Shown here one piece after another: positions 1-36,304 of a stretch of 64,000 nucleotides of DNA; the first letter of the stretch is position 1, and each line of letters opens with the position of its first letter. Origin of the DNA: a virus; the IMG/VR virus record IMGVR_UViG_3300033148_002122, positions 52,753 through 116,752 of that record; one strand, written 5' to 3'. A program made the position numbers and the translations under genes. The notes beneath the pieces are model-generated. The model had not been told where the DNA came from and did no database searches. It saw only the letters and a program-made list of their open reading frames with translations.

Positions 1-2
1 TT

Positions 3-3000
3 AAGGGTGTTCTAGGAACGGGGGTTGGTAGGCACAGTGTATCTAGGTATGATAAATTCTTGCCTAGTGATAGGAATTTTTTAGAAGAAGTTATTACTGA
101 AATTCGTAGGGAATTATCTACTCAAATTAGTGACACTACTTCTCTTCATCAACAAATAACCCAACAAGTATATGTTCCTAATACTAAGACATCTGCTGTT
201 AACGTTAACTACTTGCCTGTAGATTTTAGAGCAGCGGGTGAGTATAAACCTACTAATAGCCTTGATGGTCCTCTTGAGTTAAAATATGAAGGGTATATTA
301 ATAGAGTAATTGTACACCGTAATACACCTGGAATTGATGGCACAACAGCGATTAACGTTAAGATAGATGGAACAAGTATTTTGGATGGACTCATAACTAT
401 AGGATCTGATGAAACAGCAGCAACAGTAGTTACTGATTTTACATCAACATACTACGAAATTGATAGCAATCTAACGGTTGATATTATAGATGTTGAGGCA
501 AATGCATCCGACCTAATGGTTACTGTTGAGCTAGCTTTTCCATTCCAGTCTAATGTATTTCTAGCTAATTTTTCACTAACAGGCAGAGGAAGTATAACTG
601 AGAATCTAGATGGTTTCTTCATAGTACCATTCGAATCAGAGTGGAAATATTGGCAAGGAGTTACTGATTCTACTAGCTTAGGTCAGTACAGCATTACTGC
701 CCATAGACTGGATACAACTACTAGTGCCGGTCCAACAACTTTTCCTGCTCCTGGTGAAGCTAGTGCTAGTTTGAATGAAAACAGGATACAACCTGGGGAA
801 CTATTTAGTGTGTCTGTTAACGAGGTTCCTTCTTCCGGTGAAGATATGAGGGCAACACTTACGTTTAATAGAAGAATACCAGAGTACTATGCTATAATGG
901 ATTTTCAGGCGATGGGTAATTACTATGTAACAGAGAATGCTGATATAGCTCGATATATTCCAGAAAATATAACAATTAAGGATGTATACCTAACTAGATC
1001 AACCGGAGGAACAGATAATACATCTGTTTTCACACTTAATGATGATGGTGTTGAGATAGCTAGGGTATACATTGACAGCAGTACGGCTATTTATGATAGT
1101 ACAGGTTGTCATGTTTCACCAGAAGTTGAGGTGGCTGCTGGGTCTTACCTAACGCTTGATATTATTGGTGTTGAGGATGGGGTGCCATCAGACGCAAGAT
1201 GTATGGTTGTATATGATGTATCAATACCAACCACACCAATAGGTTTAGCCGATTCAACAGAAACGGCAGAACTTAGAAATAGCTTTATTTCACTGGACAG
1301 CAGTGTTGCAGACATATCGACTCATCTTGGTCTAGTTGATACTACAGCTTCAAACACACTGGCTAGTCTTAATAGTATTGATAGTACAGTAAGTGATATA
1401 CTTAGTAGACTAACTTTACTAGATACTACAGCGTCCCAACTAACTGATGAATACCTGGAGTTGGACGCTACTGTAGACTATATATTATATAATCAGTTGC
1501 TAAACAACAACTTATTGATTCAGTTTGGTAATGACCTAGATAGTTTTGATAGTACTTTGGCTGAGATGTCTGTAGGTCTTGGTATTTTTGATAGTACTAT
1601 ATCAGAGATGTCAGATAAAATTATTGAAATAGATAGTACAGCTTCTGAGATATCTTCTAGAATAAATATAATAGATAGTACTACTGCTGAAATGTCTATA
1701 AAACTTATAGCACTAGATAGCACTGTATCTGAGTTATCTGCTGTAGTTGGTGACACACCTGAATATGATTATGTTGACCTAGACACATCGTATGGAAAAC
1801 CTGTCCATCAACCTGGAAGGTTATTCTGGGATGACGATAATAAAACTGTTGCGATGTACACTGATAGTACTGAGGTTACACTACAGATAGGACAAGAGGA
1901 TTGGACTCGGGTTAAAAACGAAACAGGGAATACTATTGTTAATGGCAGGGCAGTAAATGTTGTTGGAGTAAATGGTAACGGCATACCTCTAGTTGATTTC
2001 GCACACGCAGGTGATAGTACATACAATCATTGTCATGGCCTAATGACTCACAATCTTGAAACTGGTAACATAGGTTATATGGTATCTCGCGGTATTATCC
2101 ATGATATTGATACTTCTTGGCTTTCTGCTGGTGATCCTCTTTATCTTTGTGATTCTACGGCTGGTCTGTACGGAACTACTATACCAACTGCTGCTGCGTC
2201 TGCTATACAGGAGATTGGTGTTGTTTTAGAATCAGGTGTTTCTGGATCTGCTCTAGTACATCCACACGCACCATCTAGAAATTCAGAACGAGCATTTGAA
2301 AGATCTTGGGCTATAACAAGTCTCAGTGGTGCGTCTGGAGACTACTACTTTGGTGGATTTTACAAACACGGTGGTACTCACGATGATTTTAGTGGAGTAG
2401 TTAACTTTGGAAGTGCTAACGTATCGTATGCTGCACATTTCTTTGTTGTTCTTGGTGCCTCTACTGTTGATGAGTTAACAATACATGTCACTGGAACATC
2501 TATAAACGACAACGGTGACAGAGCTACTAGTGACACTGAAGATATTGTAATTCCAACACTAACTTCTGTTAATGCATATTTCGAGACTAGTAAGAAGTGG
2601 TTAGGTCAAATTTCTGTAACTGTTACAGGTGGAACAGCGAAAGATTGTAATTATGGGTTCTCCAAATATTGGGATAACAATAATAACGCATTCCAACTAA
2701 TAGGTCTTGAAGTAACGGGGTTAGCTGGAGCGTCAGATACTGGTATAGAAATAAGATTGATTCATCACACTAGCTCTGGATGGACGTATAACGCAGGAAG
2801 TTCCGCTGTACCCGCAGTCTTGGCATCAATGTCTACTGACCACTCAACAGAGAGTAGGGTAGCTTCGGGTGAGGAATTTGCATGGAAACGTTCTAACTTA
2901 GATACGTCTGTAGCTGGTGGAGATTCTGAAGGAACAATCTTTTTTATTACTACCACGGTTAACGATGCCGTTGAAGTTGGAACAGCAATGATTAGAATTA

Positions 3001-3023
3001 TTACGGATATTACTAGCCAATAA
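3..3023 (+). CDS. Virion/tail-fibre-like protein, probably 5'-truncated by the window edge: three repeated beta domains, a 14-aa coiled-coil repeat and a C-terminal fibre-like domain
   Basis: The frame is open from position 3 (KGVLGTGVGRHSVSRYDKFLPSD...), so the TTG at 60 is probably not the true start. Internal repeats of 'LT(V/L)DII.VE...SD' type, heptad repeats, and 'VKNETGNTIVNGRAV', which is typical of fibre domains. Confidence 0.6.
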   Translation, partial: KGVLGTGVGRHSVSRYDKFLPSDRNFLEEVITEIRRELSTQISDTTSLHQQITQQVYVPNTKTSAVNVNYLPVDFRAAGEYKPTNSLDGPLELKYEGYINRVIVHRNTPGIDGTTAINVKIDGTSILDGLITIGSDETAATVVTDFTSTYYEIDSNLTVDIIDVEANASDLMVTVELAFPFQSNVFLANFSLTGRGSITENLDGFFIVPFESEWKYWQGVTDSTSLGQYSITAHRLDTTTSAGPTTFPAPGEASASLNENRIQPGELFSVSVNEVPSSGEDMRATLTFNRRIPEYYAIMDFQAMGNYYVTENADIARYIPENITIKDVYLTRSTGGTDNTSVFTLNDDGVEIARVYIDSSTAIYDSTGCHVSPEVEVAAGSYLTLDIIGVEDGVPSDARCMVVYDVSIPTTPIGLADSTETAELRNSFISLDSSVADISTHLGLVDTTASNTLASLNSIDSTVSDILSRLTLLDTTASQLTDEYLELDATVDYILYNQLLNNNLLIQFGNDLDSFDSTLAEMSVGLGIFDSTISEMSDKIIEIDSTASEISSRINIIDSTTAEMSIKLIALDSTVSELSAVVGDTPEYDYVDLDTSYGKPVHQPGRLFWDDDNKTVAMYTDSTEVTLQIGQEDWTRVKNETGNTIVNGRAVNVVGVNGNGIPLVDFAHAGDSTYNHCHGLMTHNLETGNIGYMVSRGIIHDIDTSWLSAGDPLYLCDSTAGLYGTTIPTAAASAIQEIGVVLESGVSGSALVHPHAPSRNSERAFERSWAITSLSGASGDYYFGGFYKHGGTHDDFSGVVNFGSANVSYAAHFFVVLGASTVDELTIHVTGTSINDNGDRATSDTEDIVIPTLTSVNAYFETSKKWLGQISVTVTGGTAKDCNYGFSKYWDNNNNAFQLIGLEVTGLAGASDTGIEIRLIHHTSSGWTYNAGSSAVPAVLASMSTDHSTESRVASGEEFAWKRSNLDTSVAGGDSEGTIFFITTTVNDAVEVGTAMIRIITDITSQ
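1293..1754 (+). repeat. Eleven in-register 14-aa (42-nt) degenerate repeats forming a predicted coiled coil
   Basis: LDSSVADISTHLGL/VDTTASNTLASLNS/IDSTVSDILSRLTL/LDTTASQLTDEYLE/LDATVDYILYNQLL/NNNLLIQFGNDLDS/FDSTLAEMSVGLGI/FDSTISEMSDKIIE/IDSTASEISSRINI/IDSTTAEMSIKLIA/LDSTVSELSAVVGD. Confidence 0.85.
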
Positions 3024-3032
3024 GGAGCTAAA

Positions 3033-3626
3033 ATGACAACTTTTTATACGCTCGATTCTAGAGCTAAAATAATTCAAGTGCAGGACAGCACAGGAGGAGA
3101 TCCTTGGGATTCGACTAGCTGGCCTGAAGAAGATTCTACCAGTACCCAAGAGTCAACTTTTACTATAGAGGGGCACAGGGATAACGTACCCTACGCTGCC
3201 GAACCGTTTGATTCTACGGCTGTTTGGGAGCAACTACCTTGTATCTTCCAGTGTCCATCAGGGCATGTTGCGTATATTACTTCAGCAACACTTCTCTATT
3301 GGGTAGCTGATGCCGATGGTCAAAATTATGGTTCTGGAGACAGTACTTTCGGGTGGAGGGGTTTTGCAAACTTTAGATTCTACACAACGGGTATGCCACT
3401 AGATACCACTTCATCAGTATGGGCACCAACAAACGTGTTCCTGCCTGTGGTATGCAGTCAGGACAATCCTTATGGAAGTAAAACATGGCATTTCACAGAT
3501 GCAGCCCAGCCATTAAATAGACCATTACGTGCAGGAGAGTCACTTGATTTGCGAGTTCGTCCACATGATGGTCCTATAAATCACTGTCAGGCAATTTTTA
3601 CTGGATATTTAGTAGCGGAAGCGTAA
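3033..3626 (+). CDS. Small DST-rich putative virion protein
   Basis: 197 aa with an AAGGAG RBS; five DST plus one DTT; lies within the structural operon. Confidence 0.6.
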   Translation: MTTFYTLDSRAKIIQVQDSTGGDPWDSTSWPEEDSTSTQESTFTIEGHRDNVPYAAEPFDSTAVWEQLPCIFQCPSGHVAYITSATLLYWVADADGQNYGSGDSTFGWRGFANFRFYTTGMPLDTTSSVWAPTNVFLPVVCSQDNPYGSKTWHFTDAAQPLNRPLRAGESLDLRVRPHDGPINHCQAIFTGYLVAEA

Positions 3627-3643
3627 TATAAGGGGAGACTAAA

Positions 3644-6544
3644 ATGTATAACAATTGGTATGGTGAGACTGATTCTACTGTTTTGCTAGGGAATATCAGA
3701 GATGAAAATCCAGCACTTGGTGTTTCAGGTACTGTAGCTAACACGGACTTCTTTGCTACCTATATTGGTCAGCCACTTATTGATTTGGCTACGGTATTAG
3801 GTCCATCACCCTCACACGCCGCAAGCAATATTTATCGTGCTGGTGGCCGTGGTGGATTTCCACTAATACAGATTCCTTCTACATCTCCAGAAATTACTAA
3901 TGATACTGATAACAGATACTGTCAGTACGAAGAGGATATTGAATCTCTATTTACTACGGCAGATATTGGTAACGGAGATCAAATACTTGGGTCGTTTGCA
4001 GTAAGGTTTGAGGGCGTAGATTTCTTTGCAGAATGGAGTAATCTTACAGCGTATGAAACTGACAATGGTAAGTACGCAGTACATGTTGATAGAGAAAATC
4101 CAAATAGATCTTTTGGAACTATACCAAACTTCAATCTTACAGGATCTGATTCATCTAATTTTGAAGTATACTTTGAAAGAGGAGCAAGTGGTGGTGGGTC
4201 AGGACTTGCTGGTAATACTATAGTATTTGGTCCTTCTGGATCAGGCGCAGATTATTCTGATTGGAATACCATGCTTGCTTCTATTGAAACAAGTCTTGAC
4301 TCTACTAATCAGTATACTGTGTATGTGATGCCAGGGTTTTATGAAGTTTCAGATGCTACATGGAGTATTTTTGACATTAATGAGTATGATGGGTCAACAT
4401 ATAAACGAATGTTCTTTAAGAATCGTGTACCATCGTATCTTCATGTTGTAGGATTAAATAAAGATAGTGTTATATTTAATCTATCAACTAATTATTTTAA
4501 TAATGCACATAAACATGGATCGCCAACTTTGGATTCAACTACAGGAGGAATTAATCCGTCTGTATTCTTTGCTTCTCAATTTAGTTCTGTATCAAATCTA
4601 ACAATTAAGGTTAACAACGAATACGTTGCTCCTCCACCAGATTTTTTACTTCCAGTTCCAATAGCTTTTTATCCTGATTCTTCTACTGCCTATGTTAGTT
4701 ATTTTGAGGATTTTTTAGATATAGATTATGATAATTATATAGGAGCAACAGAGAGAAGTCCAGCCAAACTATTAAACTTGTTCTTATTCAGAGGAGAGAA
4801 CATAAACTTTGTTGTTAGTGGCTGGGGGAATTCAAACTCATGTGTATTTGCTGGTCATCACCGTTCAGCAGGATTAGTATCATCACAGGAAGCAGATTAC
4901 CCAAAATCTATTTATGACATCTTTCTTCTAGAAGGTGTTGATGTTTGGAGTAACTCATTTTTCTATTTTAACAGATGTAGTGTTAAAGATTCTCAGCAAG
5001 GTAAAGTTGGATTTGGACTTAACTACCATGATACAAACGGAATTAGTTCTAATGGTGAGACATTTTCTGCAAGCTATTGTAATCTTATAGTTGATAGTCT
5101 GTACTACGAGTTTGATATGATATTACCGGAAACAGAACATGCTGATTCTACGCACGGATGGGTTGTACCAAGTGCAAAGAAATTTGTAGTCAAGGTTGGT
5201 AAAGGTAGTATACCCTACGTAAAGATATTTAATAATTCTGTATTTACAGCTCCTAATTGTTTTGTTCCTAGTTCTGATTCAACATATCATCTTGGAAACA
5301 AGTTTAGTTTTTCATATACGGCACATATCCTAGATGGTTGGGAAAGTAATGAAGAAGTTTACCAACAGTATAGTGATTTTCCGTGTTTAGTATACGTTTC
5401 TAGCAACAATCAAATTGATCTATACTCTAATGACTTTAACAGAAAGTCTATACATTTTAATAACTGTGAGTTCAGAGTTACAGGACTAAATCACCCACAG
5501 CTTGGTAATGATAACCTTATTGATGGTGGAATAGGGGATATCCCCTATGTTGATACAACCGACTATATTTCTGAATTTTGTGTTGGAGTTAGTAGTCTTG
5601 GAGATGTAGACCTTGTATTTAACGGATGTAGATTTGAAAATCATATTGATTCTCCTTATTCTGGTTTGTTTGTAATAGGGTCAGACGCGAAGGTTTCCAC
5701 TTCATTGGATTCACTACCTATGCTAAACGAAGTACACCTTAATAACTGTACTGGAGAATCTATTGGCTACGGATTATTTAGTGTTTGTACTGGAAAAATA
5801 GAATCTATTGAGAGCTTTTATTCTAGGATTAACATATCTGGTGGAAGTTATACCTCATATAAATCTCCTATTGTAAAAACTACACACAGAAATTGGGAGT
5901 ACAACAGTTATAGCCCTGTAGACTATACAGGATTAAGAGTATACTCAAATGGTACAATATTTAGATACGCACCAGGACCACTGATTACAGGAAGTCTACA
6001 CACTAACGCAAGAAACGCTGCACCACTATGGCTTGATACAACTACTGTGGGTGGTGTATTTGAGTTTGACACTACTACTGATATGGCTGTATTTGAGAAC
6101 TGTTCATTTGGAACACCAAGTCTTAAGAATTATGCTGATATTGGTTACTTTGCGGCTCCAGGCGTATGGCTTGGTCTTGATAAAGACTTGGTTTCCGTGG
6201 ATAAGAACTATCAATTCGGAAGCATATTTATGTTTTATCAGGATAGCACATCCTGGTCTGAGGAGAGATTCCAGTTTAGTAACTGTACTTTCTCTAGCGG
6301 TATAATACCTCCGTTCAGATTAAACACAATATACTCCAAAGGAGATTTTGCTCCAGCACTTGTATCTGGATGTAGATTTTTTACTGATTCAACTATGAGC
6401 GATCTAATGTCAGAGAATTTATTAAACATAGATTCTGGTATAATAGGTATAACGACATACGACACGACTGATTTGGAAGTTACTGTGGATTCTAACTCTT
6501 ATAACCCCTTGTATATAAGGCATTATCCACGAATCTGGAGATAG
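3644..6544 (+). CDS. Tailspike-like protein with a pectin-lyase/pectinesterase-like beta-helix
   Basis: 'GSGADYSDW...YTVYVMPGFYE...LHVVGLNKDSVIF' beta-helix entry motif; repeated 'F.NC.F' rungs (FNNCEF, FNGCRF, FENCSF, FSNCTF); GGGGAG RBS. Confidence 0.6.
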   Translation: MYNNWYGETDSTVLLGNIRDENPALGVSGTVANTDFFATYIGQPLIDLATVLGPSPSHAASNIYRAGGRGGFPLIQIPSTSPEITNDTDNRYCQYEEDIESLFTTADIGNGDQILGSFAVRFEGVDFFAEWSNLTAYETDNGKYAVHVDRENPNRSFGTIPNFNLTGSDSSNFEVYFERGASGGGSGLAGNTIVFGPSGSGADYSDWNTMLASIETSLDSTNQYTVYVMPGFYEVSDATWSIFDINEYDGSTYKRMFFKNRVPSYLHVVGLNKDSVIFNLSTNYFNNAHKHGSPTLDSTTGGINPSVFFASQFSSVSNLTIKVNNEYVAPPPDFLLPVPIAFYPDSSTAYVSYFEDFLDIDYDNYIGATERSPAKLLNLFLFRGENINFVVSGWGNSNSCVFAGHHRSAGLVSSQEADYPKSIYDIFLLEGVDVWSNSFFYFNRCSVKDSQQGKVGFGLNYHDTNGISSNGETFSASYCNLIVDSLYYEFDMILPETEHADSTHGWVVPSAKKFVVKVGKGSIPYVKIFNNSVFTAPNCFVPSSDSTYHLGNKFSFSYTAHILDGWESNEEVYQQYSDFPCLVYVSSNNQIDLYSNDFNRKSIHFNNCEFRVTGLNHPQLGNDNLIDGGIGDIPYVDTTDYISEFCVGVSSLGDVDLVFNGCRFENHIDSPYSGLFVIGSDAKVSTSLDSLPMLNEVHLNNCTGESIGYGLFSVCTGKIESIESFYSRINISGGSYTSYKSPIVKTTHRNWEYNSYSPVDYTGLRVYSNGTIFRYAPGPLITGSLHTNARNAAPLWLDTTTVGGVFEFDTTTDMAVFENCSFGTPSLKNYADIGYFAAPGVWLGLDKDLVSVDKNYQFGSIFMFYQDSTSWSEERFQFSNCTFSSGIIPPFRLNTIYSKGDFAPALVSGCRFFTDSTMSDLMSENLLNIDSGIIGITTYDTTDLEVTVDSNSYNPLYIRHYPRIWR

Positions 6545-6547
6545 TAT

Positions 6548-9500
6548 ATGAATAAACTTTCCTTTAAGTTATCTAGAAGAATAGACATTAATAGAGATTC
6601 ACAATTTATTAAGTGTGTTGAAACCCATAGTCTAGATAATACTATATATTATGAATTTTCTTACACTGAATCTAGTAGTGAGTATAGTTGGGCGTATAGA
6701 TACATAGAGGTAAAGGATAGTAACGTAGAAATTTCCATAAATAAATTACTTGAATTTAGTCTTATAGAGAGTGCTTCAATAGTAAATACTAATGACGAAA
6801 TGCTAGATATATCAGATAACGTTATAGCAGGGAGATGTCTCAGAACATGCTCTGGTCTTGCTGGTCAATACTGGGATGCCGCAGATATCTGGGGTGCTGG
6901 GTATGCCCAGGCTGTAACAGATTCGTCTGCTATGTTTTGTTTTAATCTAGTTGCAGGCTGCGCTGGTACTTCTTCTTCCAGTTACATAACAGGGTTAGTA
7001 GACTCAACCGTAACATTTATTGCTGGGTTTAGGGATCCGTTCTATACCCCTGAACAATTAACTGATTCAACCCATTATTTAGAACGTGCGGTATACTTCC
7101 CAACTAGATCTGTTGCACCAAATCATTCACTACAAAGGTATAAGGTTAGTGGAGTTGAATCGAGGGTTGAAGCCAATATACTATATATAGCTGCTGAACT
7201 TACGGAGGATGATGATACTGTGTTGTCTTCTACTGACGCACTATATAATCTTGGTATTAGATCAGGTATAGTATCAGATGGTATTCCAAATACAATATTT
7301 ATAGCCGGAATTTGTCATCATCTACACTGGTCAGCAAATAGTATTGATGGCTTGTGTATAGACGCTGATTACGAAAAGGGTGAGATGTTTATACCGGGAA
7401 CTTCTGTTAGGTCTAACTCTCTGGGGTGGAATATTGATGGTGTACAGGGTAAATCTGTAGGTATAGGTCAGAGTGATTCTACCGTAAATGTTGGTTTTGA
7501 GTTTGATGGTCTTACGTCTTATCCAGTTGAGCGATCAAGAATGGTGTTTGGGTCACAAGAAGGGAGTGGAATAGGTTTATTCCATCCAGATCTTGGTGGT
7601 GATGGTGATTCCACTCATGGTGTCTATCTGTATAACTTAGGATTAAATTCTGTTTTTGTTAATAATGCTAGAAAAATTCTTTACGGCGATGACTTACTAG
7701 GTTATACTGGACAGGGTTATAGCAGAGAACATGTGGAGGATTGGTCAATAGACGCAGGTAGTTCTTTTCATGTTATGAAAGTGTTTGGCATTGTTGGTGG
7801 AAGATGGAACGATAGCGGAACCCTTGGTGTAGCTCCTGGTTGTCATATGGACCCAGAATGTGTTAGAGGATATATCTTTGAATTAGTTGACTATGGCGTT
7901 GCTGACGTATATTCTTACTCACTAGAAAGTTCTTACCTATCAGACTACGGCACATTAACCTTTTATGATGTTGTTGGAGACACTGGTGCATACCCTATAG
8001 GGTCTGTAGCTAACTCCCTAACCGCTGGATACGCTGCTTCTAATGATGCTTGGTATCTTGTACCAGCATTTGGTAATGGTGGACACTACATTAATTTTGA
8101 TTCTGAAATAATAGGTATAAGTGCATTTTCTGTTTGGGACGGGACTAGTCCTGTGTATTCACACGGAGAGGCATTAACTTTTGTTTCTCCAGTACCTCAG
8201 TTAATTGCAGGTCCATACTATGATCCTAATGGTGCTACATTATTTGATAGTCATAGTTATGGTGAGTACGCAGGGCAGAGTTGTGCAACTCCTGCCGCTG
8301 CTGGTGGTATGTTATTATTAAAAGAGGCTAGACCAGAGCTATCTTATTTTGAGGCAAAGAATGTGCTTGCTAGTTCTTGTAGAAAGTTTCCAGACATGAC
8401 TGCCGAATCTGAGAATTGGCATCATCAGTTTGGTTATGGTAGACCGGATATGCTAGCAGCGTTTAATACAGATACAACAGAAACACCTTGTGCCCCACCA
8501 AGGGGGTTAATTGTTGATGGTGTTGGGAGAGATACACTGCTTTTTAGGTGGACAAACCCACACTACAAGCATTTTGAAAAAGTAAAGATATTAAGAAAAG
8601 ATGCTTTAGATCCAGGTACGTATGATACTTTTGCAAATTTACATAGTCTTTCTATCGAAGAACAGCCAGAAGGCATAGGCCAAGAAGAAAGTTTAGAATG
8701 GGTTGACACAATAACAACTTCCCCTCTTGGGTTGTCTGTTACCGATAGTACCTACTTTGGTAAAGTCCAACTGTATTTTGATTTTTGGGGCAGCAGCAGT
8801 TACATCAGTACGTTTAGTCACAATGGCATGGCCGAGTGGAATACCACGTACTATGATTTAATAAGCGCACCTGGAGATACTACGAGTAATGATTTCCCAA
8901 CGGGTATGCCAGAAGTTTATTTCAATTATGGTGGAACCGCACATGCTGCTATGTATGTTATTGATTCTACTGGTGACTGGTTTGGCTACTTCATAGACCA
9001 CATCCGCACAACCTGTGAGTACTTCTACGATCAAGGCAATCCCTTGTATGGTATTTTCCTTGATGATTTTGCTAATGTTATTAGTTGGTCCTACATTGTT
9101 GGTCCTGAGAAGACAAAAACATATGATCGTAATGGCGCACAAAATGATAGTTCTCATATATTCATAACTTGTCCCGAGTTATGGAGTTACTACATGGCTA
9201 GTGACTACTATCCGATATGGGGTGATGATAACTGGGAAGAAATGACCAAAACTGAACAGAAAGTTGTTACGATTCAGTGGTACTATGGTGTAATGAATGT
9301 CCAAATGGAGAGTCTAGAGCAGCAAGTGTGGGATATTATTAATAATTATTGTATACCTGACGGAAAGATGATTGTTAACGGTATTGGTAGAAGGCTCGAT
9401 GAGATAGGAGGGGGCCACCCCACGTATGGGAATTGGGTTCCAAGATACGGAACAACTAGGTTGTTCGAAGCCGCTGCCGAATTTGGTTATTCAAATCTTG

Positions 9501-11683
9501 AGGACATGGTTGGGGATGATGGTACAGGGAGTGATTACTACAAATCTAGATATTGCCACCCAGGTGATCAACTTCTTGTTTATTGCTTAGGCCCATCAAG
9601 AACATGGGGTGACTGGTCAGATGACTCGTTTGGTGAAGGTGAACGCAACTTACAACTTATTGCTGAGTTAGCAGAGAAAAGAAATGCATCGGTTGGTGTA
9701 GGGTATGCCGTAACCCCCTTTGATGGTGGAACAAGGCTTAGTGCTTTGTTTGATCCTAATGATGTAGATGACAGATGGCCTGGGTACATAAGTCCTAATA
9801 CTTATATGACTAACCACACAGACGGGGATATAGTTTATGAGGGAAATGCTAGTTTAGCTACTGATTCTCCAGACACTGGTGACTACAGATATTATATTTT
9901 TTCAAAAGATGTATGGGAAAACTGGAGTAGTAGTGGTATTGAGTTCGCATTTCCTTCAGCAAGAAAAGAAACAGAAGTAACATTCACTGTTTCTAGTTAT
10001 TCTTTTTACTATGGAAGCATTATTATATACGGGACGTTATCACCAGAAACGGACTTTGATATTGATCCTGCAAATGGTGAAACATTCTATAATGATTCAA
10101 CAGCAGTTCCACCACTTAGCCCCGGAGGTTTACCACATGGTTCTGGGTGGTATCTTGAAGGAAGTAGAGCCAGAGAAATATACCCAATACGCTATATAAA
10201 AATGTATGGCGAAGGCGACACAGATAGAGGCAAAGTAGAATACGTATCAATAACAGATAACTACATAGATAGCGATACTCTGTATGAAGGATTGGTTCTT
10301 AACTTTAAATATTTATCATTAAATGTTGGAAATACTAATGCGCTTGAACCTCATAAAGTAAGAACTATTGAGGATATTCCATATCCAAAACCAGATATTA
10401 ATGTTGGTAAAAATACGTGGCATACTACCTTTGATCCCTATGTAGATGCTACCGCTGTTTATGATAGCATAGAAAAATCAATTCAATTTTATATTGGGAA
10501 TATTAGAAACCCAATGGGTATCACAGATATTGAAATCTATAGGTATGACGGAGAGAATCCAACAGATTCAGACTGGCCTGAAAGAGCTACCTATACACTT
10601 GGCACTGATTCTACATCCATACACACATTCAAAGAAGTTTCGAACTACTTGCCTATAACTAGCTATAAAATTGTTCCTATTTCTGTCTATGGAGTTGAAT
10701 CGTCTGAGCCTTTTTATCTTCTTAACATTACAACTAATCCGATTAACCCACCAAGTGTAGAAAGTGGTGGTGTATTCGCAAATTTTGCGTCACTAATTAA
10801 TATGTCTCATGGATATGATAATGACATAATTTTTAACGTTAGAAAAAATGGTACTAACTATGCTACTGGAGTATTATCATCCAATAAGATAACTACGTTC
10901 TATGATATTTTTTGGCAAGAGGGTGATACATACGATATAAGAGCATACTACGATGGTTATTGGAGTGAGTACTCCGTAGTAATCGAACCTGTATGGGCAG
11001 GTATACAGACCGCTAATACTAACTTAGGTATTGAAGATGTGTATGATCATGTAACGCTTGGTAATAGTACGTGGGATAATTATTTTGATGTTAACTTTAA
11101 CCTACAGTTTACTGCCGCTACTAATAAGTTAGGAACATTTAAAATAGGCCAACCCGTGTGGTCTGGAACTGTTGGTGGATTCCAGTATAGAACAGTTGTT
11201 GTTCCTCTTTCCTACGGAGGTAAAACACAAGAATCTGCGTTAGCGGTTCCTCAGTTTGAGTTCTGGAATAGCCAAGCTGGCGGGGAGATGTTGTATAGGT
11301 TTGAGGTTAATCCTATAGAGTTTGAGTTTGAATTTGGTGTTCAGAGTAAGAGGATGTCAACACTAGATGGTCCAGATAAACTTCAGCTAAAATATCAGGA
11401 TCATGTACTCCGTAGTATGGTATGGAGAAACATACCACTTCAAAGATACGCCAAATTAGTGTCAATACTAAAAACATATATCAACGGTACTGTATGGCTC
11501 GATGCCAAGGACTTTACTATGCCAGTTAAAGGAGAATTTCCGTTTGTATACGCTGGCGGGTATAGATATCAGATACAAGTTGTTGACGTTATTATCAAGC
11601 CCATTGATGGCAAGGGAGTTCAAAGGGGAGACGTTGAATTGAAGTATAAGCTTATAACCTCTTCTGATTCTGGAGTTATATAA
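6548..11683 (+). CDS. Multidomain virion protein: S8 subtilase-like domain, FN3-like domain with an inserted TIM-barrel/glycoside-hydrolase-like domain, C-terminal tail domain
   Basis: S8-like motifs GKSVGIGQSD, FHVMKVFGIVGG...GVAPG, VPAFGNGG, GQSCATPAAAG...FGYGRPD; FN3-like 'LFRWTNP...VKILRK...DGDIVYEG...YRYYIFSKD'. Confidence 0.65.
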   Translation: MNKLSFKLSRRIDINRDSQFIKCVETHSLDNTIYYEFSYTESSSEYSWAYRYIEVKDSNVEISINKLLEFSLIESASIVNTNDEMLDISDNVIAGRCLRTCSGLAGQYWDAADIWGAGYAQAVTDSSAMFCFNLVAGCAGTSSSSYITGLVDSTVTFIAGFRDPFYTPEQLTDSTHYLERAVYFPTRSVAPNHSLQRYKVSGVESRVEANILYIAAELTEDDDTVLSSTDALYNLGIRSGIVSDGIPNTIFIAGICHHLHWSANSIDGLCIDADYEKGEMFIPGTSVRSNSLGWNIDGVQGKSVGIGQSDSTVNVGFEFDGLTSYPVERSRMVFGSQEGSGIGLFHPDLGGDGDSTHGVYLYNLGLNSVFVNNARKILYGDDLLGYTGQGYSREHVEDWSIDAGSSFHVMKVFGIVGGRWNDSGTLGVAPGCHMDPECVRGYIFELVDYGVADVYSYSLESSYLSDYGTLTFYDVVGDTGAYPIGSVANSLTAGYAASNDAWYLVPAFGNGGHYINFDSEIIGISAFSVWDGTSPVYSHGEALTFVSPVPQLIAGPYYDPNGATLFDSHSYGEYAGQSCATPAAAGGMLLLKEARPELSYFEAKNVLASSCRKFPDMTAESENWHHQFGYGRPDMLAAFNTDTTETPCAPPRGLIVDGVGRDTLLFRWTNPHYKHFEKVKILRKDALDPGTYDTFANLHSLSIEEQPEGIGQEESLEWVDTITTSPLGLSVTDSTYFGKVQLYFDFWGSSSYISTFSHNGMAEWNTTYYDLISAPGDTTSNDFPTGMPEVYFNYGGTAHAAMYVIDSTGDWFGYFIDHIRTTCEYFYDQGNPLYGIFLDDFANVISWSYIVGPEKTKTYDRNGAQNDSSHIFITCPELWSYYMASDYYPIWGDDNWEEMTKTEQKVVTIQWYYGVMNVQMESLEQQVWDIINNYCIPDGKMIVNGIGRRLDEIGGGHPTYGNWVPRYGTTRLFEAAAEFGYSNLEDMVGDDGTGSDYYKSRYCHPGDQLLVYCLGPSRTWGDWSDDSFGEGERNLQLIAELAEKRNASVGVGYAVTPFDGGTRLSALFDPNDVDDRWPGYISPNTYMTNHTDGDIVYEGNASLATDSPDTGDYRYYIFSKDVWENWSSSGIEFAFPSARKETEVTFTVSSYSFYYGSIIIYGTLSPETDFDIDPANGETFYNDSTAVPPLSPGGLPHGSGWYLEGSRAREIYPIRYIKMYGEGDTDRGKVEYVSITDNYIDSDTLYEGLVLNFKYLSLNVGNTNALEPHKVRTIEDIPYPKPDINVGKNTWHTTFDPYVDATAVYDSIEKSIQFYIGNIRNPMGITDIEIYRYDGENPTDSDWPERATYTLGTDSTSIHTFKEVSNYLPITSYKIVPISVYGVESSEPFYLLNITTNPINPPSVESGGVFANFASLINMSHGYDNDIIFNVRKNGTNYATGVLSSNKITTFYDIFWQEGDTYDIRAYYDGYWSEYSVVIEPVWAGIQTANTNLGIEDVYDHVTLGNSTWDNYFDVNFNLQFTAATNKLGTFKIGQPVWSGTVGGFQYRTVVVPLSYGGKTQESALAVPQFEFWNSQAGGEMLYRFEVNPIEFEFEFGVQSKRMSTLDGPDKLQLKYQDHVLRSMVWRNIPLQRYAKLVSILKTYINGTVWLDAKDFTMPVKGEFPFVYAGGYRYQIQVVDVIIKPIDGKGVQRGDVELKYKLITSSDSGVI

Positions 11684-12213
11684 TGTTTGTAAAGACTGTA
11701 GCACACAGATTCATACTATATGATAGCACTACTGATTTGCAGGGTAATGATGCTCCACAGTGGGATTCTTTTATAAGGCTTTCTATTAATCCGTATTCAT
11801 ACAATGGATATACAGAAAGAGATTTAAATCAAGTTGATTCACTATTTGAGCCGCACGGCACACTAGTTGAAGAATCATATTTCAACTACAATCCTATAAA
11901 GTTGGAGTGGCGAAATATAGCTAAGTTTAAGTACTTTGATAAAGAACATGGTGATGTTATAGAGGGTGGTACTTATCCACAGTTTTATGAGTTAGTGTCT
12001 ATGATATACACGAATAGTGAAAAATATTATTTTCTAGATGATAGAGGGTATACTACTAGTCCAGATTTTACAGATTTAAAACATCCAAAGCAAGTGTTTA
12101 TAAAGGTAAGAGTAGACACTGTTGATATTAAGGGGTTTGCAACTGTTCCAGCACCTTATTTTCATGCCGTAGAGGTTATTCTTACACCTCTAGCAATTTA
12201 TACGAAGAATTAG
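11683..12213 (+). CDS. Putative distal tail protein
   Basis: 176 aa, TAATG-coupled to the previous gene; 'INPYSY...IKLEWRNI' resembles the C-terminus of the previous gene (VNPIEF...SMVWRNI); lies before the hub-like gene. Confidence 0.4.
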   Translation: MFVKTVAHRFILYDSTTDLQGNDAPQWDSFIRLSINPYSYNGYTERDLNQVDSLFEPHGTLVEESYFNYNPIKLEWRNIAKFKYFDKEHGDVIEGGTYPQFYELVSMIYTNSEKYYFLDDRGYTTSPDFTDLKHPKQVFIKVRVDTVDIKGFATVPAPYFHAVEVILTPLAIYTKN

Positions 12214-12223: not shown

Positions 12224-15200
12224 ATGATTCCTGAAACAAATGAAACTAGACGGGACAAAGTATTTAGTCCTCATAGTATACCTATTGGTAGGGTAAAAAT
12301 ATACGACACTAAGTTTACTGTACCAAGTAATGGAATTGTTTATAGAATTTATGACCTAGGTTCTTCGCCTGGGTCAGATCCTACTTTGTACGATCCGTAC
12401 TATCCTGATAATAGTTATACCTTTATACCACTTTTAAATGCAAGTGTTGATACTGGTGGCAGGATTCATGTAATATTTGATGACTGGGAAACGGGTGTCG
12501 CACCAGCAGTATCAAGTGATTATTTTGCAACAGTTTACGAAGGTTACTTTTACGCCAGGGAAACTGGGACATACAATTTAAGGCTTGACTACCTTGGTGG
12601 AGTTGAGTTATACTTTGACACCGATACAGCACATGGTTTCAAATCAGAGGGATCAAGATCAGCGCATGACATAGAAACACTCACCCCACTTTATTCTGAT
12701 TGGAACAAAGAGTTAGAGACTTTTAATCCTATAGATCAGAGTCCACCACCTTATGAAGTTAGCCTAACTGCTGGTGAGTTCTATAAGTTTAGGCTTAAAT
12801 ACTGGAATAGAAGAAAGGAACTAAACGCTGTAGTACTTTCTTACTGTGACCCCAACGGGGACGGCACAACATACATACCATTCAGTGCAGGAAATTGTTC
12901 TGACTATCATTATAAAGCTACTGAGAATGAATACTTTTTAGAACCAACAACAGTGTTGTCAGTAATACAAATGAACGGCAATAGAACTGAAACAGATGCC
13001 GCTGCATACTCATTTACTGCCAGAGCTTCTGACACAGACTCACAGAATGCCTATAATGCTTCTCTAGATTCTTTTGGTAATATAAAGAAGGATATGCTAG
13101 TTAAGTTCCAGATAGGATACTCAACAAATAGTTACGGAGTAATAGCTTCTGAGGGTGATTTTATAACTAGATTTGTTGGTTTTGTGACTAGTGACATAAA
13201 CATTCACAGAGATAAGTATGGTGCTAACATTGTTTTTTCGTGTAATGACTTTAAGACAAGACTTATAACTTCACCTAATTTAAATTATCCAAATACTGCG
13301 TGTTATTTATACAATCAATTCTTTAACTTAGACAAGGACGGAGAACCAGACGGGTATACAAGGGTTAGGTTCTTTGACAGATGGCCTCTTGACAAGACAG
13401 TTAGAAGTTTATTAATACTTGGTGGTATTGACCCTGAATTAATATTTAAGAAGTATAGGTCTATCACAGTTGATAACACAGTTGAAGACACAATACTTAA
13501 TACCATTCATGTACAAGATATAGATCTTGATTCAAGAGATAGTTATGGTAGAATAGGTTATAATTTTTCTTGGCCGTTTGATTACGAGCCATTATGGTCG
13601 TTTAAGTTTGCTACAGATACAGTTAATGATATAATTAACGAGTTGTCAAAAAATTATGGGTTTAGGTTTACATTCTCAGTTGATGGCATACCAAACATTA
13701 CTTCTGTAGACTACTATAACTTTAATCCGTTACCTGAGTCTTATGTTGAAGAGAATTTTGTGTATAGTCAAGGTGCCTCTAACTTTCAATACTATGAGAT
13801 AGCTCCAGGCTCATCAGCAAGCTATCAGTTCTATGGTAAACGCGCAGACATAGTGTTTAAGAGGTCTTCAATTGCAGGTGGATTTAGAGTGTGGATTAGG
13901 AGTTATGTTAACAGCGTGTGGACTGGCTATACACTGGCTAAGACATTGTTTATTAACGGAGAGAAAACATATAGAGAAGACGGATTGTTTAATGCTGTAT
14001 TTCCTATAACATGGAACGTCAGGGACGGTGTTTATTCGTTATATGGTAGTAACCCCTGTGTTGCCAAGATATTACACGGATTAGACTACGGACTACATGA
14101 ATACAAGATTGAAGCAGTTGGTGAAGAATTCTATTTCGATGGAATAAGAAGTTATGTAATAGACAGCCACACACCTGTTAGGCAGTACTCTACAATAAAT
14201 CATATTCGTGATCTTAGTATTATTGATAATGTTAAGGATATGATAAATGAAGTGATTGTTGTTGGTGATAGATCTGGTCCAGACATAGGTGATTCTCAAG
14301 ATATCGCCAGTCACATACCTTCCAAGCATGTATTCTGGAGATCAATTGATATTCGTTCTCAGCTTGATCCGTCTTATAAATACTATCGTGGACGCAAGGT
14401 TCCAGTAATTATACATGAATCTAAGATAACTCAGAAGGACAGAGCCAGATGGTTAGCTGAGTACACTCTGGAAAGATACAGAACTGTTGCGTTGTTAGCC
14501 ACTTTTAGCGGTGCTGGCGATCCATATCTTGAAGTGTATGATCCTATTACGCTACAGGATATTAAGACTCAGTTTATTACACCAGATAAAACCTTGTGGG
14601 TAACGGGGTTTTCTGAAAGTTTGCGTAAGGGTGAGTACATAGTTAGTGATGTTCAAACTACTCCACGACCACCAATACCTAGTTTTATAAAGCAGGATAC
14701 GATATCTTCGATTATAGAAGATAATTATCCAGACAAGTTTATTGCTTTTGAAGAGATTGTATACACAGGTTCTTACAGTAGGTCTGGAACTACCACACTT
14801 GGTGAATACGGTGTGGATGAATATGGCGAGACATACTATGGAGGTAGAACACAAGAAACTTCTGGTATTGATTTTCAGAATAGAATACATTTTGATCCCT
14901 ATGCTGCTAGAGAAAATAGGGACAGTCTAACCTTTAAGTGGTCCCTCATGAAAAGGGGTTATCAATATCTAGAGGTATGGGATAGCAGAATATCAGATTC
15001 ATTCTCAGATCCATATGCTTCTTACGCTAGTGATGGAATAAATATTAATGCTGAAGCTGTTGATTTTCAGGACACAGAGCCTGGAAAACTTTTATCTGTA
15101 GTATACCTAAATAAAGAAGCTACTATGGATGAGCCAGGAGTGTACTCTGTTACCTGGGATACTATACATGAATCAACGGTTAAGAGTGATGCTAAGTGGG

Positions 15201-24052: not shown

Positions 24053-24694
24053 ATGAAAATTTCTGTGTTACTGCCTATGCGTGATTCAGATAGTGATTCT
24101 GTGGATGGGCTAAGGACTTTGATAGAGAATAGAACAGGCGATAATGAACTTGAGATACTGTTTGGTGTAGATAGAGATGATGACTCATGGAAACAGGTTA
24201 CGGCTATGCTGGATGAGGAGTTTCCTGAAATTGAGTACGTTGTATGCGTTACCAAGCAATTTGGATACACTAGCCTGTATGAGTACATGAACCGATTGGC
24301 AGCGTTGTCAACAGGTGATTGGCTTATGATGTGGAATAATGATGTCTACATGATAGGAAAAACATGGGACTTAGGTATAAATAAAGACTTATTTAAGTTG
24401 TATTACCTACAGTCTGATAATCAGTGTGAATTTCCTGTGTTTCCGAGAAAATGGTTTGAACTTACAGGAAGAATCTCTTTGTCTAGGCATTGTGATTCGT
24501 GGATGTTATACATAGGAAGAGAAATTCTTACAAAGGAGGGTGCCGTGCTATCTGAGTTACCAAACTCTAGGGTTAATCACCTGAAAAAAGTAAAACAAGT
24601 GTATGATAATAAACATTTTAAGGACTTAGCCAGTGAGAGAAATATTGATAAGAACAGGATTGTGGACTACTTAAAAAGTGAGGGACTAATATGA
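24053..24694 (+). CDS. Glycosyltransferase family 2 (GT-A fold)
   Basis: 'KISVLLPMR...EILFGVDRDD...MNRLAALSTGDWLMMWNNDV'. Confidence 0.8.
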   Translation: MKISVLLPMRDSDSDSVDGLRTLIENRTGDNELEILFGVDRDDDSWKQVTAMLDEEFPEIEYVVCVTKQFGYTSLYEYMNRLAALSTGDWLMMWNNDVYMIGKTWDLGINKDLFKLYYLQSDNQCEFPVFPRKWFELTGRISLSRHCDSWMLYIGREILTKEGAVLSELPNSRVNHLKKVKQVYDNKHFKDLASERNIDKNRIVDYLKSEGLI

Positions 24695-25941: not shown

Positions 25942-25942
25942 A

Positions 25943-36051: not shown

Positions 36052-36304
36052 ATTTTATTATTCCGTAGGTTGAATACCTAGGAAATTCTTTAAATGGTTG
36101 TGACTCCCATACTTGGTTCATAGTACAAAATATACGCTTAAGGAATATTAGGGCATCTTCTACGCTATGAAATATATCTGTGTTGTACGTTCCGTTATTG
36201 CCTCTAAATTCAGCTACCCATTTATTATCTTTTTCATGTGGTTTTTCCCATATAATGTAGGTATCTCCATCAGGAAATACTTTTATCCATGCCCCAAGTT
36301 TCAC
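36011..36304 (-). CDS. Hypothetical protein
   Basis: Overlapping GTGA coupling with the upstream gene. Confidence 0.45.
   Translation of the reverse strand: MKLGAWIKVFPDGDTYIIWEKPHEKDNKWVAEFRGNNGTYNTDIFHSVEDALIFLKRIFCTMNQVWESQPFKEFPRYSTYGIIKCEERFAHAELLAK

What the first reader, a model, noticed from the sequence alone, without database searches (positions are those of the whole stretch)
3..11683. D-S-T tripeptide strongly over-represented in four non-homologous proteins and selected at protein level
Hand counts of DST (+DTT): ORF 60..3023, 12 (+4); 3033..3626, 5 (+1) in only 197 aa; 3644..6544, 7 (+4); 6548..11683, 8 (+2). That is about 32 DST in about 3860 aa. The similarly D/S/T-rich genes 12224..24042 (about 3940 aa) have only about 2 DST and 1 DTT. 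The Ser is encoded by both TCN and AGY codons (gattctact, gatagtaca, gacagcaca, gattcgact), and the flanking sequence and folds differ, so this is not a DNA repeat. It behaves like an independently evolved recognition tag.
Basis: seen in the sequence. Interest (0 to 1): 0.85.

Follow-up and report, generated by a model that had tools for sequence, protein, structure and literature searches.

The report
Asp-Ser-Thr tag on phage tail proteins
An uncultured 117-kb tailed phage and its relatives carry the tripeptide Asp-Ser/Thr-Thr about ten times too often in unrelated tail, fibre and decoration-like proteins, which looks like a mark read by a phage enzyme (possibly a sugar transferase), though no modification has been shown.

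Summary
ORFs A-D hold 32 DST against 2.3 expected (z 19; 0 of 5000 shuffles). DST is the top tripeptide of 8000, and it stays enriched with tandem repeats removed (23 vs 2.0). The motif is strict: D-[S>T]-T. Single-substitution neighbours (NST, EST, DSS, DSD, DAT and others) sit near background.

The excess extends over the late gene block of the whole 116.7-kb phage genome (136 D[ST]T vs 18.4). It includes a 1426-aa fibre-like protein with 66 DST. It replicates in a syntenic relative at about 43% identity, where DST is again the top tripeptide, and in six further homologues.

Sites are partly conserved, with S/T swaps, and partly gained and lost. An exported paralogue of one domain has none.

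The phage encodes at least five glycosyltransferase-family proteins and about nine sugar-pathway enzymes. One GT1 lies inside the structural module and is conserved in the relative.

Best reading (0.4): an acceptor sequon for phage-directed O-glycosylation. A lineage-specific structural turn or cap motif (0.3) is not excluded. The host, the enzyme and the modification are all unshown.

The scan has noted similar but weaker Asp-small-Ser/Thr excesses on other phage DNA, and two follow-ups there judged them structural.

The parts
3..3023 (+). ORF A, first gene after the tape measure. The true start is 48 nt upstream of the window (1023 aa). It has 12 DST and 5 DTT.
   Evidence: Homologue P0002 (44% identity) keeps D[ST]T at 12 of the 14 aligned sites, 4 of them with an S/T swap. 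No Pfam or PHROG family.
1296..1757 (+). 14-residue periodic array inside A (residues 449-602). Units begin with D-[STA]-[TS], and hydrophobic residues fall at unit positions 4, 7, 11 and 14.
   Evidence: hydrophobic fractions are 0.83, 0.83, 0.83 and 0.75 at positions 4, 7, 11 and 14. That is a heptad a/d pattern and would put D-S-T at e-f-g. The coiled coil is inferred from sequence only.
3033..3626 (+). ORF B, 197 aa, the densest carrier: 5 DST and 1 DTT. Three of the DST lie 8 residues apart in a low-complexity N-terminal stretch.
   Evidence: 5 vs 0.15, 0 of 5000. In the G001 orthologue 4 of the 6 sites are D[ST]T.
3644..6544 (+). ORF C, 966 aa, with repeated FNNCxF motifs typical of a beta-helix. 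It has 7 DST and 4 DTT.
   Evidence: four homologues at 38-57% identity are all 7- to 16-fold enriched and keep most sites. The AF2 model has mean pLDDT 53, and 10 of 11 sites lie in coil.
6548..11683 (+). ORF D, 1711 aa, with 8 DST and 2 DTT. It contains a domain (about residues 692-1080) shared with late protein g19730 and with an exported paralogue.
   Evidence: Weak Peptidase_S8 hit below the cut-off.
11683..12213 (+). ORF E, 176 aa, 1 DST.
12224..17320 (+). ORF F, 1698 aa, with a PA14/GLEYA lectin-like domain. It serves as an internal control with no excess (1 DST vs 0.84 expected). Its orthologue in G001 has 7 DST.
17320..24042 (+). ORF G, 2240 aa. Control with no excess (1 DST, 1 DTT).
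24053..28121 (+). Four co-oriented genes that follow the tail genes directly: a weak GT2/HpnI-like protein (24053..24694), UDP-glucose 6-dehydrogenase (24691..25941), a B12-binding radical SAM enzyme closest to HpnJ (25943..27346), and NAD synthetase (27324..28121).
28114..29013 (-). GT1-family glycosyltransferase, 299 aa.
   Evidence: PF00534, 28.0 bits against a cut-off of 26.4.
36301..38527 (-). Heptose-7-phosphate-kinase-like PfkB protein (36301..37254) next to a GT9 heptosyltransferase-family protein (37244..38527) that has a conserved Cys/His cluster.
   Evidence: rfaE domain I, E 9e-40.
43484..45473 (-). RmlD/heptose-epimerase-like reductase (43484..44212) and a DegT/PseC-type sugar aminotransferase (44361..45473).
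51783..52778 (-). Exported paralogue of the D/g19730 domain, with a signal-peptide-like N-terminus. It has 0 D[ST]T.

Best explanation
D-[S>T]-T is a three-residue linear motif kept by selection on a subset of late, mostly distal-tail, fibre and decoration-like proteins of this siphovirus-like phage clade. The most likely reading is an acceptor sequon. During late infection, in the cytoplasm, a phage-encoded glycosyltransferase would attach sugar to the Ser/Thr hydroxyl of exposed D-S/T-T sites, using sugar nucleotides made by the phage's own pathway genes. The best-placed candidate is the GT1-family enzyme inside the structural module; the two GT2s and the GT9 are alternatives. The result would be glycan-coated fibres and baseplate.

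Shown: the enrichment, its strict specificity, its replication in relatives, site turnover, and the presence of the enzymes.

Inferred: that an enzyme reads the motif, that the modification is a glycan, and which enzyme does it.
For: (1) Effect size and specificity. DST is the top tripeptide in the late blocks of two phages at about 43% identity (51 vs 7.4, z 16; 43 vs 7.3, z 13). All tested one-substitution neighbours lie within about 0.4- to 1.5-fold of expectation; the exception is DGT in the relative, at 15 vs 6.3. Typical type-I turn triplets reach at most about 2.7-fold (DPN 7 vs 2.6).

(2) The motif occurs in different structural contexts: a heptad-patterned array in A, an alternating S-Y-S beta-type repeat in the 1426-aa protein, predicted coil between beta-helix rungs in C, and a low-complexity N-terminus in B.

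(3) The middle residue swaps S/T at 7 of 30 shared sites and at 4 of 12 in A vs P0002, as an acceptor position would. S is preferred over T, as in the Bacteroidota sequon (PMC12871550 passages).

(4) Sites turn over while enrichment is maintained: 30 shared, 29 in this phage only, 21 in the relative only. F' has 7 where F has 1, and the decoration-like protein has 3 vs 0.

(5) Natural experiment: the exported paralogue of the D/g19730 domain has none of the 5 sites. One loop is DST in D and in the G001 orthologue of g19730, but PTE or PEE in the other two paralogues.

(6) There is no excess outside the late block: 3 vs 7.3 without the 135-aa ORF. The tape measure, portal, protease and capsid protein have 0 vs 1.9.

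(7) Enzymes are present. GT1 g33460-34521 (E 9e-17) lies between the repeat-fibre genes and the portal and is conserved at that place in G001. GT2 g11447-12289 (E 1e-19) lies directly after a 135-aa ORF with 4 DST. There are also a marginal GT2, a second GT1 and a GT9, plus a Gmd-family dehydratase, an epimerase, DegT, Ugd, a heptose kinase, a methyltransferase and a B12 radical SAM enzyme. No enzyme checked carries the motif.
Against: No modification has been observed, and no enzyme is linked to the motif. The co-occurrence test failed for lack of relatives.

In the 1426-aa array S5 and S7 are as invariant as D-S-T (57 of 57 units), and G4, Y6 and L10 are nearly so, which is what a structural repeat looks like.

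At the 50 aligned non-shared sites, decay keeps D-x-T 14 times, D-[ST]-x 6 times and x-[ST]-T 2 times. D and T therefore seem more constrained than the supposed acceptor.

D-S-T-G fits a type-I turn (recalled turn statistics).

F has a lectin-like domain and is presumably exterior, yet it lacks the motif in this phage.

Avoidance of the motif in other proteins is not significant (P 0.07 and 0.15).

The sugar genes could instead serve host-surface or DNA modification.

The only structural model of a carrier has low confidence (pLDDT 53).

Follow-ups elsewhere in this scan judged weaker DST/DGST excesses in other phages to be hairpin turns (AI notes, not checked here).
Confidence: 0.4

Rival explanations
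1. A lineage-specific structural motif. D-S/T-T would form an Asx/ST turn, a helix N-cap or a small metal-binding turn that this clade's fibre and baseplate folds reuse. It would have spread by repeat amplification and convergent selection for the same local geometry, and nothing would read it in trans.
For: The repeat unit DSTGSYSxxL has seven near-invariant positions, not only DST. 44 of 57 units have G after DST, which fits a tight turn. Hydrophobic residues are enriched at -1 and -2 (0.53-0.60 vs 0.40-0.41), and Pro is depleted nearby. Decayed sites mostly keep D-x-T (14 of 50). About half of this phage's aligned sites are retained at 43% identity (30 of 59). P0003, a distant signal-peptide protein, has a stalk of 13/16-residue units that each begin with D-T-x. 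Other follow-ups in this scan reached this verdict for weaker motifs (unchecked notes).
Against: A generic turn or cap should tolerate N at position 1 and S, D, N or G at position 3. Here NST is 2 vs 5.4, DSS 9 vs 9.7, DSD 8 vs 8.3 and DSN 8 vs 5.9, while DST is 51 vs 7.4. The same tripeptide appears in heptad-patterned, beta-repeat and loop contexts. Paralogues of one fold do without it or gain it at different positions. Orthologues differ 7 to 1 and 3 to 0. The excess is confined to a subset of late proteins.
Confidence: 0.3
2. A tag read by something other than a glycosyltransferase. This could be another modification of Ser/Thr or Asp (phosphorylation, a phosphopantetheine-like transfer at D-S-x, or radical-SAM or methyl chemistry), or a docking motif for an assembly chaperone or decoration protein.
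For: The same statistics as for the sequon reading. The phage encodes a B12 radical SAM enzyme in the late operon and a methyltransferase. D-S-x is the phosphopantetheine attachment motif of carrier proteins; a preprint uses the term 'DST motif' (search listing only), and the rest is recalled.
Against: No protein kinase or phosphopantetheinyl transferase was found among the roughly 75 ORFs scanned. The sugar toolkit is by far the largest functional group of accessory genes. Carrier-protein recognition needs a helical-bundle fold, not a bare tripeptide (recalled).
Confidence: 0.15
3. Host glycosylation. The motif would be the host's Bacteroidota-type periplasmic O-glycosylation sequon D-(S/T)-(A/I/L/V/M/T), of which D-[ST]-T is a subset.
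For: D-[ST]-T is a strict subset of that sequon, with the same S-over-T preference (PMC12871550 passages; PMC8550257 abstract in the listing).
Against: The other sequon members are not enriched: D[ST][AILVM] is 8 vs 14.3 in A-D. That system acts on non-cytoplasmic proteins, and A-D have no signal-peptide-like N-termini (judged by eye). The phage's two signal-peptide proteins show no sequon excess (1 vs 0.7 and 1 vs 2.2). The host is unknown: the nearest Ugd relatives are MAGs of several phyla, best 62% to a Gammaproteobacteria MAG. A heptose branch hints at a heptose-using host (inference).
Confidence: 0.03
4. An artefact of amino-acid composition or of DNA repeats.
For: The proteins are rich in D, S and T, and part of A's count lies in one periodic array.
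Against: 0 of 5000 composition-matched shuffles reach the count, with or without repeats. The equally D/S/T-rich F and G show none. Both Ser codon families are used, and 54 units are encoded by 51 distinct 21-mers.
Confidence: 0.01

Closest known systems
General protein O-glycosylation of Bacteroidota, sequon D-(S/T)-(A/I/L/V/M/T)
   Same: A three-residue motif starting with Asp, with Ser preferred over Thr as the middle residue, and Thr allowed at position 3. The review calls it the only known bacterial O-glycosylation with a sequence motif (PMC12871550 passages).
   Different: Here only Thr at position 3 is enriched. The carriers lack signal peptides and are virion proteins assembled in the cytoplasm, whereas the Bacteroidota system is periplasmic, en bloc, from a lipid carrier. 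The host is unknown. The review's supplementary figures on third-position preference could not be seen.
Virion glycosylation of mycobacteriophages by phage-encoded glycosyltransferases (Freeman et al. 2023)
   Same: Phage-encoded transferases would decorate structural proteins made in the cytoplasm.
   Different: There the glycans are reported on the C-termini of the capsid and tail-tube subunits (passage in PMC12619734; the original paper is not held). Here there would be a strict internal tripeptide on tail-tip, fibre and decoration-like proteins. The putative capsid protein has none. Nothing is shown experimentally here.
TibC/Aah autotransporter heptosyltransferases (BAHT), cytoplasmic O-heptosylation of Ser in beta-helical repeat adhesins
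   Same: The phage has a GT9-fold enzyme (Z 22.0 to TibC, 288 residues aligned, rmsd 3.4), a heptose kinase next to it, a conserved Cys/His cluster inserted in the C-lobe, and repeat-rich Ser-bearing fibre proteins as possible substrates.
   Different: LPS heptosyltransferases match equally well or better (3TOV and WaaF Z 25, WaaC Z 21.5). A sequence profile hits WaaF (5e-22) but not TibC. The Cys spacing differs from TibC's CxxC...C...C. The N-terminal domain is about 60 aa, not a 97-residue barrel.
Asx/ST turns and helix capping boxes
   Same: D at i and S/T at i+1 and i+2, often followed by G or A, after hydrophobic residues. In A the unit reads D-S-T-x-x-E, with T-x-x-E like a capping box.
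   Different: These motifs are degenerate, but the excess here is confined to D-[ST]-T and to a subset of proteins.

Membership tests
Bacteroidota O-glycosylation substrates | Excess of the whole sequon D-(S/T)-(A/I/L/V/M/T) | tested here: not met
   In A-D, D[ST][AILVM] is 8 vs 14.3 expected; only D[ST]T is enriched.
Bacteroidota O-glycosylation substrates | Substrates are non-cytoplasmic (signal peptide or membrane proteins) | tested here: not met
   The N-termini of A-D show no signal-peptide-like hydrophobic stretch (judged by eye, no predictor run). The two phage proteins with such N-termini have no sequon excess.
Bacteroidota O-glycosylation substrates | Host belongs to Bacteroidota | tested here: inconclusive
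   No close cultured-phage relative. Ugd relatives are scattered over MAGs of several phyla, and none of those genomes holds the phage TerL.
Phage virion glycosylation (mycobacteriophage type) | Phage-encoded glycosyltransferases | tested here: met
   Pfam hits above cut-off: GT1 61.6 bits and 28.0 bits, GT2 71.3 bits and 23.5 bits, GT9 38.4 bits.
Phage virion glycosylation (mycobacteriophage type) | Glycan detected on virion proteins | not testable with these tools
   Needs mass spectrometry or glycan staining of virions.
GT9 (ADP-heptose-dependent glycosyltransferases) | Family profile match and GT-B fold like WaaC/WaaF | tested here: met
   PF01075 38.4 bits against a cut-off of 22. AF2 model pLDDT 88.8. 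3TOV Z 25.1 (294 aligned, rmsd 3.1) and WaaF Z 25.0.
BAHT (TibC/Aah protein heptosyltransferases) | Closer to TibC than to LPS heptosyltransferases | tested here: inconclusive
   TibC Z 22.0 against WaaF 25.0 and WaaC 21.5. Foldseek rank 11, E 6.6e-8. Profile search: TibC not matched at E<=1.
BAHT (TibC/Aah protein heptosyltransferases) | Four-Cys iron finger inserted in the C-lobe, plus an N-terminal beta-barrel of about 97 residues | tested here: inconclusive
   C341, C348, H351 and C366 are invariant in 31 homologues, but the spacing differs from C339/342/358/370. The region has pLDDT below 50. The N-terminal domain is about 60 residues of mixed alpha/beta.
Generic Asx / type-I beta-turn motif | Degenerate residue preferences (D/N/S/T at i; D/N/S/T/G at i+2) | tested here: not met
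   NST 2 vs 5.4, DSS 9 vs 9.7, DSD 8 vs 8.3, DSN 8 vs 5.9, DSG 6 vs 8.0, against DST 51 vs 7.4. The same holds in G001.
Coiled-coil stalk (A residues 449-602) | Heptad a/d hydrophobic periodicity | tested here: met
   Hydrophobic fractions of 0.75-0.83 at unit positions 4, 7, 11 and 14, and no more than 0.5 elsewhere. This is sequence pattern only.

The most novel reading that the evidence does not exclude
This phage clade runs its own cytoplasmic, sequon-directed protein O-glycosylation system. A phage transferase would recognise the bare tripeptide D-S/T-T on folded or folding virion proteins and seed a complex glycan built from phage-made heptose, uronic-acid and amino-deoxy sugars. Fibres, baseplate and a 64-rung repeat whisker would then carry a programmable glycan coat whose site map evolves by gain and loss of a three-residue tag. 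That would be the first strict O-glycosylation sequon outside Bacteroidota and the first sequon known for any phage.
Probability: 0.3. Interest if true: 0.85.

Novelty: new variant of a known kind. Interest (0 to 1): 0.65.

Why it matters
Bacterial O-glycosylation is said to lack sequence motifs, with one exception: the Bacteroidota system (PMC12871550). Phage virion glycosylation is known from very few cases. If D-S/T-T is a phage-read sequon, it would be a minimal, portable tag for site-specific glycosylation in the cytoplasm, useful for glycoengineering. It would also show that phages tune the surface chemistry of their fibres by evolving a site map, which bears on host range, stickiness, and resistance to proteases or immune recognition. 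If the motif is structural instead, it is an unusually strict, clade-wide three-residue building rule spanning helical and beta contexts, which is also worth a structure. Either way the claim can be tested with one small protein (B, 197 aa, 6 sites) and a handful of enzymes.

Tried and rejected
Relatives:
- Megablast of window 1-12300 against cultured phages found nothing.
- TerL by tblastn found only about 24% identity to Bacillus and Microcystis phages.
- The search for related loci found nothing with B, the A alignment or the GT9 in viral contigs.
- TerL in viral contigs gave only G001 and two short distant contigs, which I did not analyse.
- Both metagenome scans found nothing.
- The planned test, co-occurrence of the enrichment with a given transferase across genomes, could therefore not be run.

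Host:
- The Ugd scan of genome contigs gave MAGs of five different lineages, none holding the phage TerL.
- The host is left open.

Structure:
- The AF2 model of C from 5 sequences has mean pLDDT 53, and only one site lies in a block above 70. I use it only as a weak hint that sites lie in loops.
- Complex prediction on three copies of A residues 440-620 gave 'no answer' (score 0.35, mark 0.42). It counts neither way.

GT9 as a TibC-like protein heptosyltransferase:
- I considered this because of the Cys cluster and the adjacent heptose kinase.
- Sequence and fold do not separate it from LPS enzymes, so it is kept only as a candidate.

PDB sequence searches:
- The weak GT2-like protein H found nothing, and the window GT1 found no glycosyltransferase.
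- The structural-module GT1 is nearest to BshA/MshA-type GT4 enzymes.
- The robust GT2 is nearest to entry 5HEA 'GalT1'. Its role in glycosylating a serine-rich adhesin is my recollection, not a result here.

DNA glycosylation as the use of the sugar genes:
- It is not excluded.
- Among the ORFs scanned I saw ThyX but no ThyA-like hydroxymethylase.

Literature searches turned up no paper describing a D-S-T motif on phage virion proteins. I saw listings and abstracts only, except for the passages named in the report.

The GC-rich island at 31.9-34.3 kb has no Rfam or Pfam match.
Full report
WHAT THE WINDOW IS

The window is bases 52753-116752 of a single 116,752-bp virus record with 39% GC. The genome is siphovirus-like. 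It holds:
- a family-A DNA polymerase;
- a large terminase;
- a portal;
- a protease;
- a 2089-aa tape measure that ends just before the window.

The finding's ORFs A-D are the first four genes after the tape measure, which is where distal-tail, baseplate and fibre proteins lie. No Pfam or PHROG family names them. C has FNNCxF repeats typical of beta-helices. F, downstream, carries a PA14/GLEYA lectin-like domain. The opposite strand of the window holds replication genes, eight tRNAs and many sugar-metabolism genes. No cultured phage is close, and the host is unknown.

THE OBSERVATION

- In A-D, DST occurs 32 times against 2.34 expected from within-protein shuffles (sd 1.5; maximum 9 in 5000 shuffles).
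- It is the most over-represented of all tripeptides (z 19.3), and DTT follows at 12 vs 2.1.
- Each of A, B, C and D is significant alone.
- Removing A's periodic array and B's clustered trio leaves 23 vs 2.03 (0 of 5000).
- The Ser uses both codon families, and flanking DNA is unrelated.
- A-D do not match each other by BLASTP, apart from one 44-residue local hit.
- F and G, of similar composition, have 2 DST vs 1.8 expected.

The motif is strict. Position 1 is D, position 2 is S (less often T), and position 3 is T. In A-D no other residue at any position is clearly enriched, and D[ST][AILVM] is 8 vs 14.3. Flanks show only weak preferences: hydrophobic residues at -1 and -2, small residues at +1, and Pro depleted.

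IT IS A GENOME-WIDE AND CLADE-WIDE PROPERTY

The late gene block of the whole genome holds 136 D[ST]T vs 18.4 expected. All other ORFs hold 7 vs 7.6, and 4 of those 7 lie in one 135-aa ORF directly upstream of a GT2 gene.

The extreme case is a 1426-aa protein (genome 28304-32584) with 66 DST. Of the intervals between successive DST, 57 are exactly 14 residues, giving units that read DST-G/A-S-Y-S-x-x-L-x-x-x-x. 54 of the units are encoded by 51 different 21-mers.

Other carriers include:
- a beta-helix protein (4 DST);
- a decoration-like 188-aa protein between the protease and the putative capsid protein (3 DST);
- a tail-tube-like protein (2 DST and 2 DTT).

The tape measure, portal, protease and putative capsid protein have none (0 vs 1.9 expected; not significant on its own).

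A degenerate DNA pattern for two repeat units found one related viral contig, G001: 59 kb, a fragment, syntenic, at 30-63% protein identity. There DST is again the top tripeptide of the late block (43 vs 7.3, z 13), and the same orthologues carry it.

Six further homologues from protein databases are also enriched:
- P0002, of A: 15 D[ST]T vs 1.4.
- P0005-P0008, of C: 4-10 vs 0.3-1.2.
- The distant P0003: 7 vs 1.0.

CONSERVATION AND TURNOVER

- Against P0002 (45% identity over the aligned part), 12 of the 14 aligned sites in A are D[ST]T in both proteins, 4 of them with the middle S and T exchanged.
- In the C family most sites are kept, again with S/T swaps, and there are a few gains and losses.
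- Between the two genomes, leaving out the repeat protein, 30 aligned sites are shared (7 with an S/T swap), 29 are in this phage only, 21 are in G001 only and 21 are unaligned, at 43% mean identity.
- F' has 7 DST where F has 1. The decoration-like protein has 3 vs 0.
- So sites are kept far more than chance would allow, yet they are also made and lost while both genomes stay strongly enriched.

A natural experiment points the same way. One domain occurs in D, in the late protein g19730 (and its G001 orthologue), and in an early-strand paralogue with a signal-peptide-like N-terminus. The exported paralogue has none of the five D[ST]T sites. One loop is DST in D and in the G001 orthologue of g19730, but PTE or PEE in the other two. 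The fold does not need the motif.

STRUCTURAL CONTEXT

- In A's array, hydrophobic residues fall at unit positions 4, 7, 11 and 14. That is a heptad pattern and would place D-S-T at e-f-g, with Ser outermost.
- In the 1426-aa protein the unit alternates S-Y-S like a beta strand, and S5 and S7 are as invariant as DST.
- In the low-confidence model of C, 10 of 11 sites lie in coil between rungs.
- In B three sites lie in a low-complexity stretch.
- The same tripeptide therefore appears in unlike contexts. I could not measure exposure with confidence.

CANDIDATE READERS

The phage encodes at least five glycosyltransferase-family proteins above the Pfam cut-offs:
- GT1 g33460-34521, which lies between the repeat-fibre genes and the portal and is conserved in that place in G001;
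- GT2 g11447-12289;
- a marginal GT2 at g7398-8201;
- a second GT1 at window 28114..29013;
- a GT9 at window 37244..38527.

There is also a weak GT2/HpnI-like protein in the late operon.

Sugar-pathway genes include a GDP-mannose-4,6-dehydratase-family enzyme, an epimerase, a DegT aminotransferase, an RmlD-like reductase, UDP-glucose dehydrogenase, a heptose-7-phosphate-kinase-like protein, a methyltransferase and a B12 radical SAM enzyme.

I tested whether the GT9 resembles TibC, the cytoplasmic protein O-heptosyltransferase. It has a conserved Cys/His cluster in the C-lobe and a confident GT-B model. But LPS heptosyltransferases match as well or better, by profile and by fold. The acceptor type cannot be told.

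WEIGHING THE READINGS

Composition and DNA repeats are excluded.

The host Bacteroidota-type sequon is unlikely. The wider sequon is not enriched, the carriers have no signal peptides, and the phage's exported proteins show no excess.

Between a trans-read tag and a purely structural motif the evidence is mixed.

For a tag:
- the extreme specificity against near-equivalent turn formers;
- the unlike structural contexts;
- the S/T interchange at the middle position;
- gains at non-homologous positions;
- absence from the exported paralogue;
- restriction to a subset of late proteins;
- a transferase inside the structural module.

For structure:
- the other invariant positions of the big repeat;
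- the preference for G after DST there;
- D-x-T being the commonest decay product (14 of 50);
- F lacking the motif although probably exterior;
- the verdicts of two earlier follow-ups on weaker motifs in other phages (unchecked notes).

I put the glycosylation sequon at 0.4, a structural motif at 0.3, and another kind of reader at 0.15.

COMPARISON AND NOVELTY

The nearest known rule is the Bacteroidota sequon, described as the only motif-driven bacterial O-glycosylation (PMC12871550 passages). The nearest known phage biology is mycobacteriophage virion glycosylation, seen only as cited in PMC12619734. The case here differs from both: a strict internal tripeptide on cytoplasmically assembled tail and fibre proteins.

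My searches found no description of such a motif on phage proteins. The scan itself has noted related but weaker Asp-small-Ser/Thr excesses in other phage lineages. As far as I can judge from those notes, this is the strictest and strongest case, and it is replicated in a second genome.

LIMITS

- The host is unknown.
- There is no confident structure of any carrier.
- No experimental data exist.
- Signal peptides were judged by eye.
- ORFs were called mechanically.

Noticed in passing
window 31900-34300: A 2.4-kb island of 54-62% GC in a 39% GC phage, among minus-strand early genes. Its ORFs on both strands have no Pfam family, and there is no Rfam match. It may be a recent foreign insertion or an unusual gene set.
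   Followed up: partly
window 55494-58928 (-): The ribonucleotide reductase large subunit (1144 aa) is interrupted by an HNH-endonuclease-like segment (about residues 483-589) between its N- and C-terminal RNR matches. This suggests an intein or an inserted homing endonuclease.
   Followed up: no
window 37244-38527 (-) and homologues P0011-P0048: A GT9 subfamily (about 377-446 aa, mostly from uncultured bacteria) has an invariant C-x6-C-x2-H...C cluster inserted in the C-lobe. LPS heptosyltransferase structures do not obviously share it. It could be a metal finger like TibC's but with different spacing.
   Followed up: partly
window 24053-28121 (+): An HpnI-like GT2, Ugd, an HpnJ-like B12 radical SAM enzyme and NadE lie head to tail right after the tail genes. 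The pairing of HpnI-like and HpnJ-like genes recalls hopanoid cyclitol-ether chemistry (sugar ring contraction), which is odd in a phage late operon.
   Followed up: partly
window 51783-55145 (-): Two signal-peptide-bearing proteins sit side by side: a paralogue of a virion-protein domain (331 aa) and a heparinase II/III-like protein (782 aa). The phage may export glycan-acting enzymes during infection.
   Followed up: partly
G001 (L008) 26916-28337 (-): The orthologue of the 464-aa tail-tube-like protein is split into two ORFs (242 and 201 aa) in the relative. This could be a frameshift, programmed or an assembly error.
   Followed up: no
protein P0003 (distant hit to A's stalk): A signal-peptide protein from another organism has a 42-residue super-repeat (16+13+13) whose units each begin with D-T-x. 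It has 18 Bacteroidota-type sequons vs 4.0 expected, so it may be a host-glycosylated fibre-like protein.
   Followed up: partly
window 46190-46267 (-): A tRNA-Ile with anticodon TAT lies among eight phage tRNAs, all of which read A- or U-ending codons.
   Followed up: no
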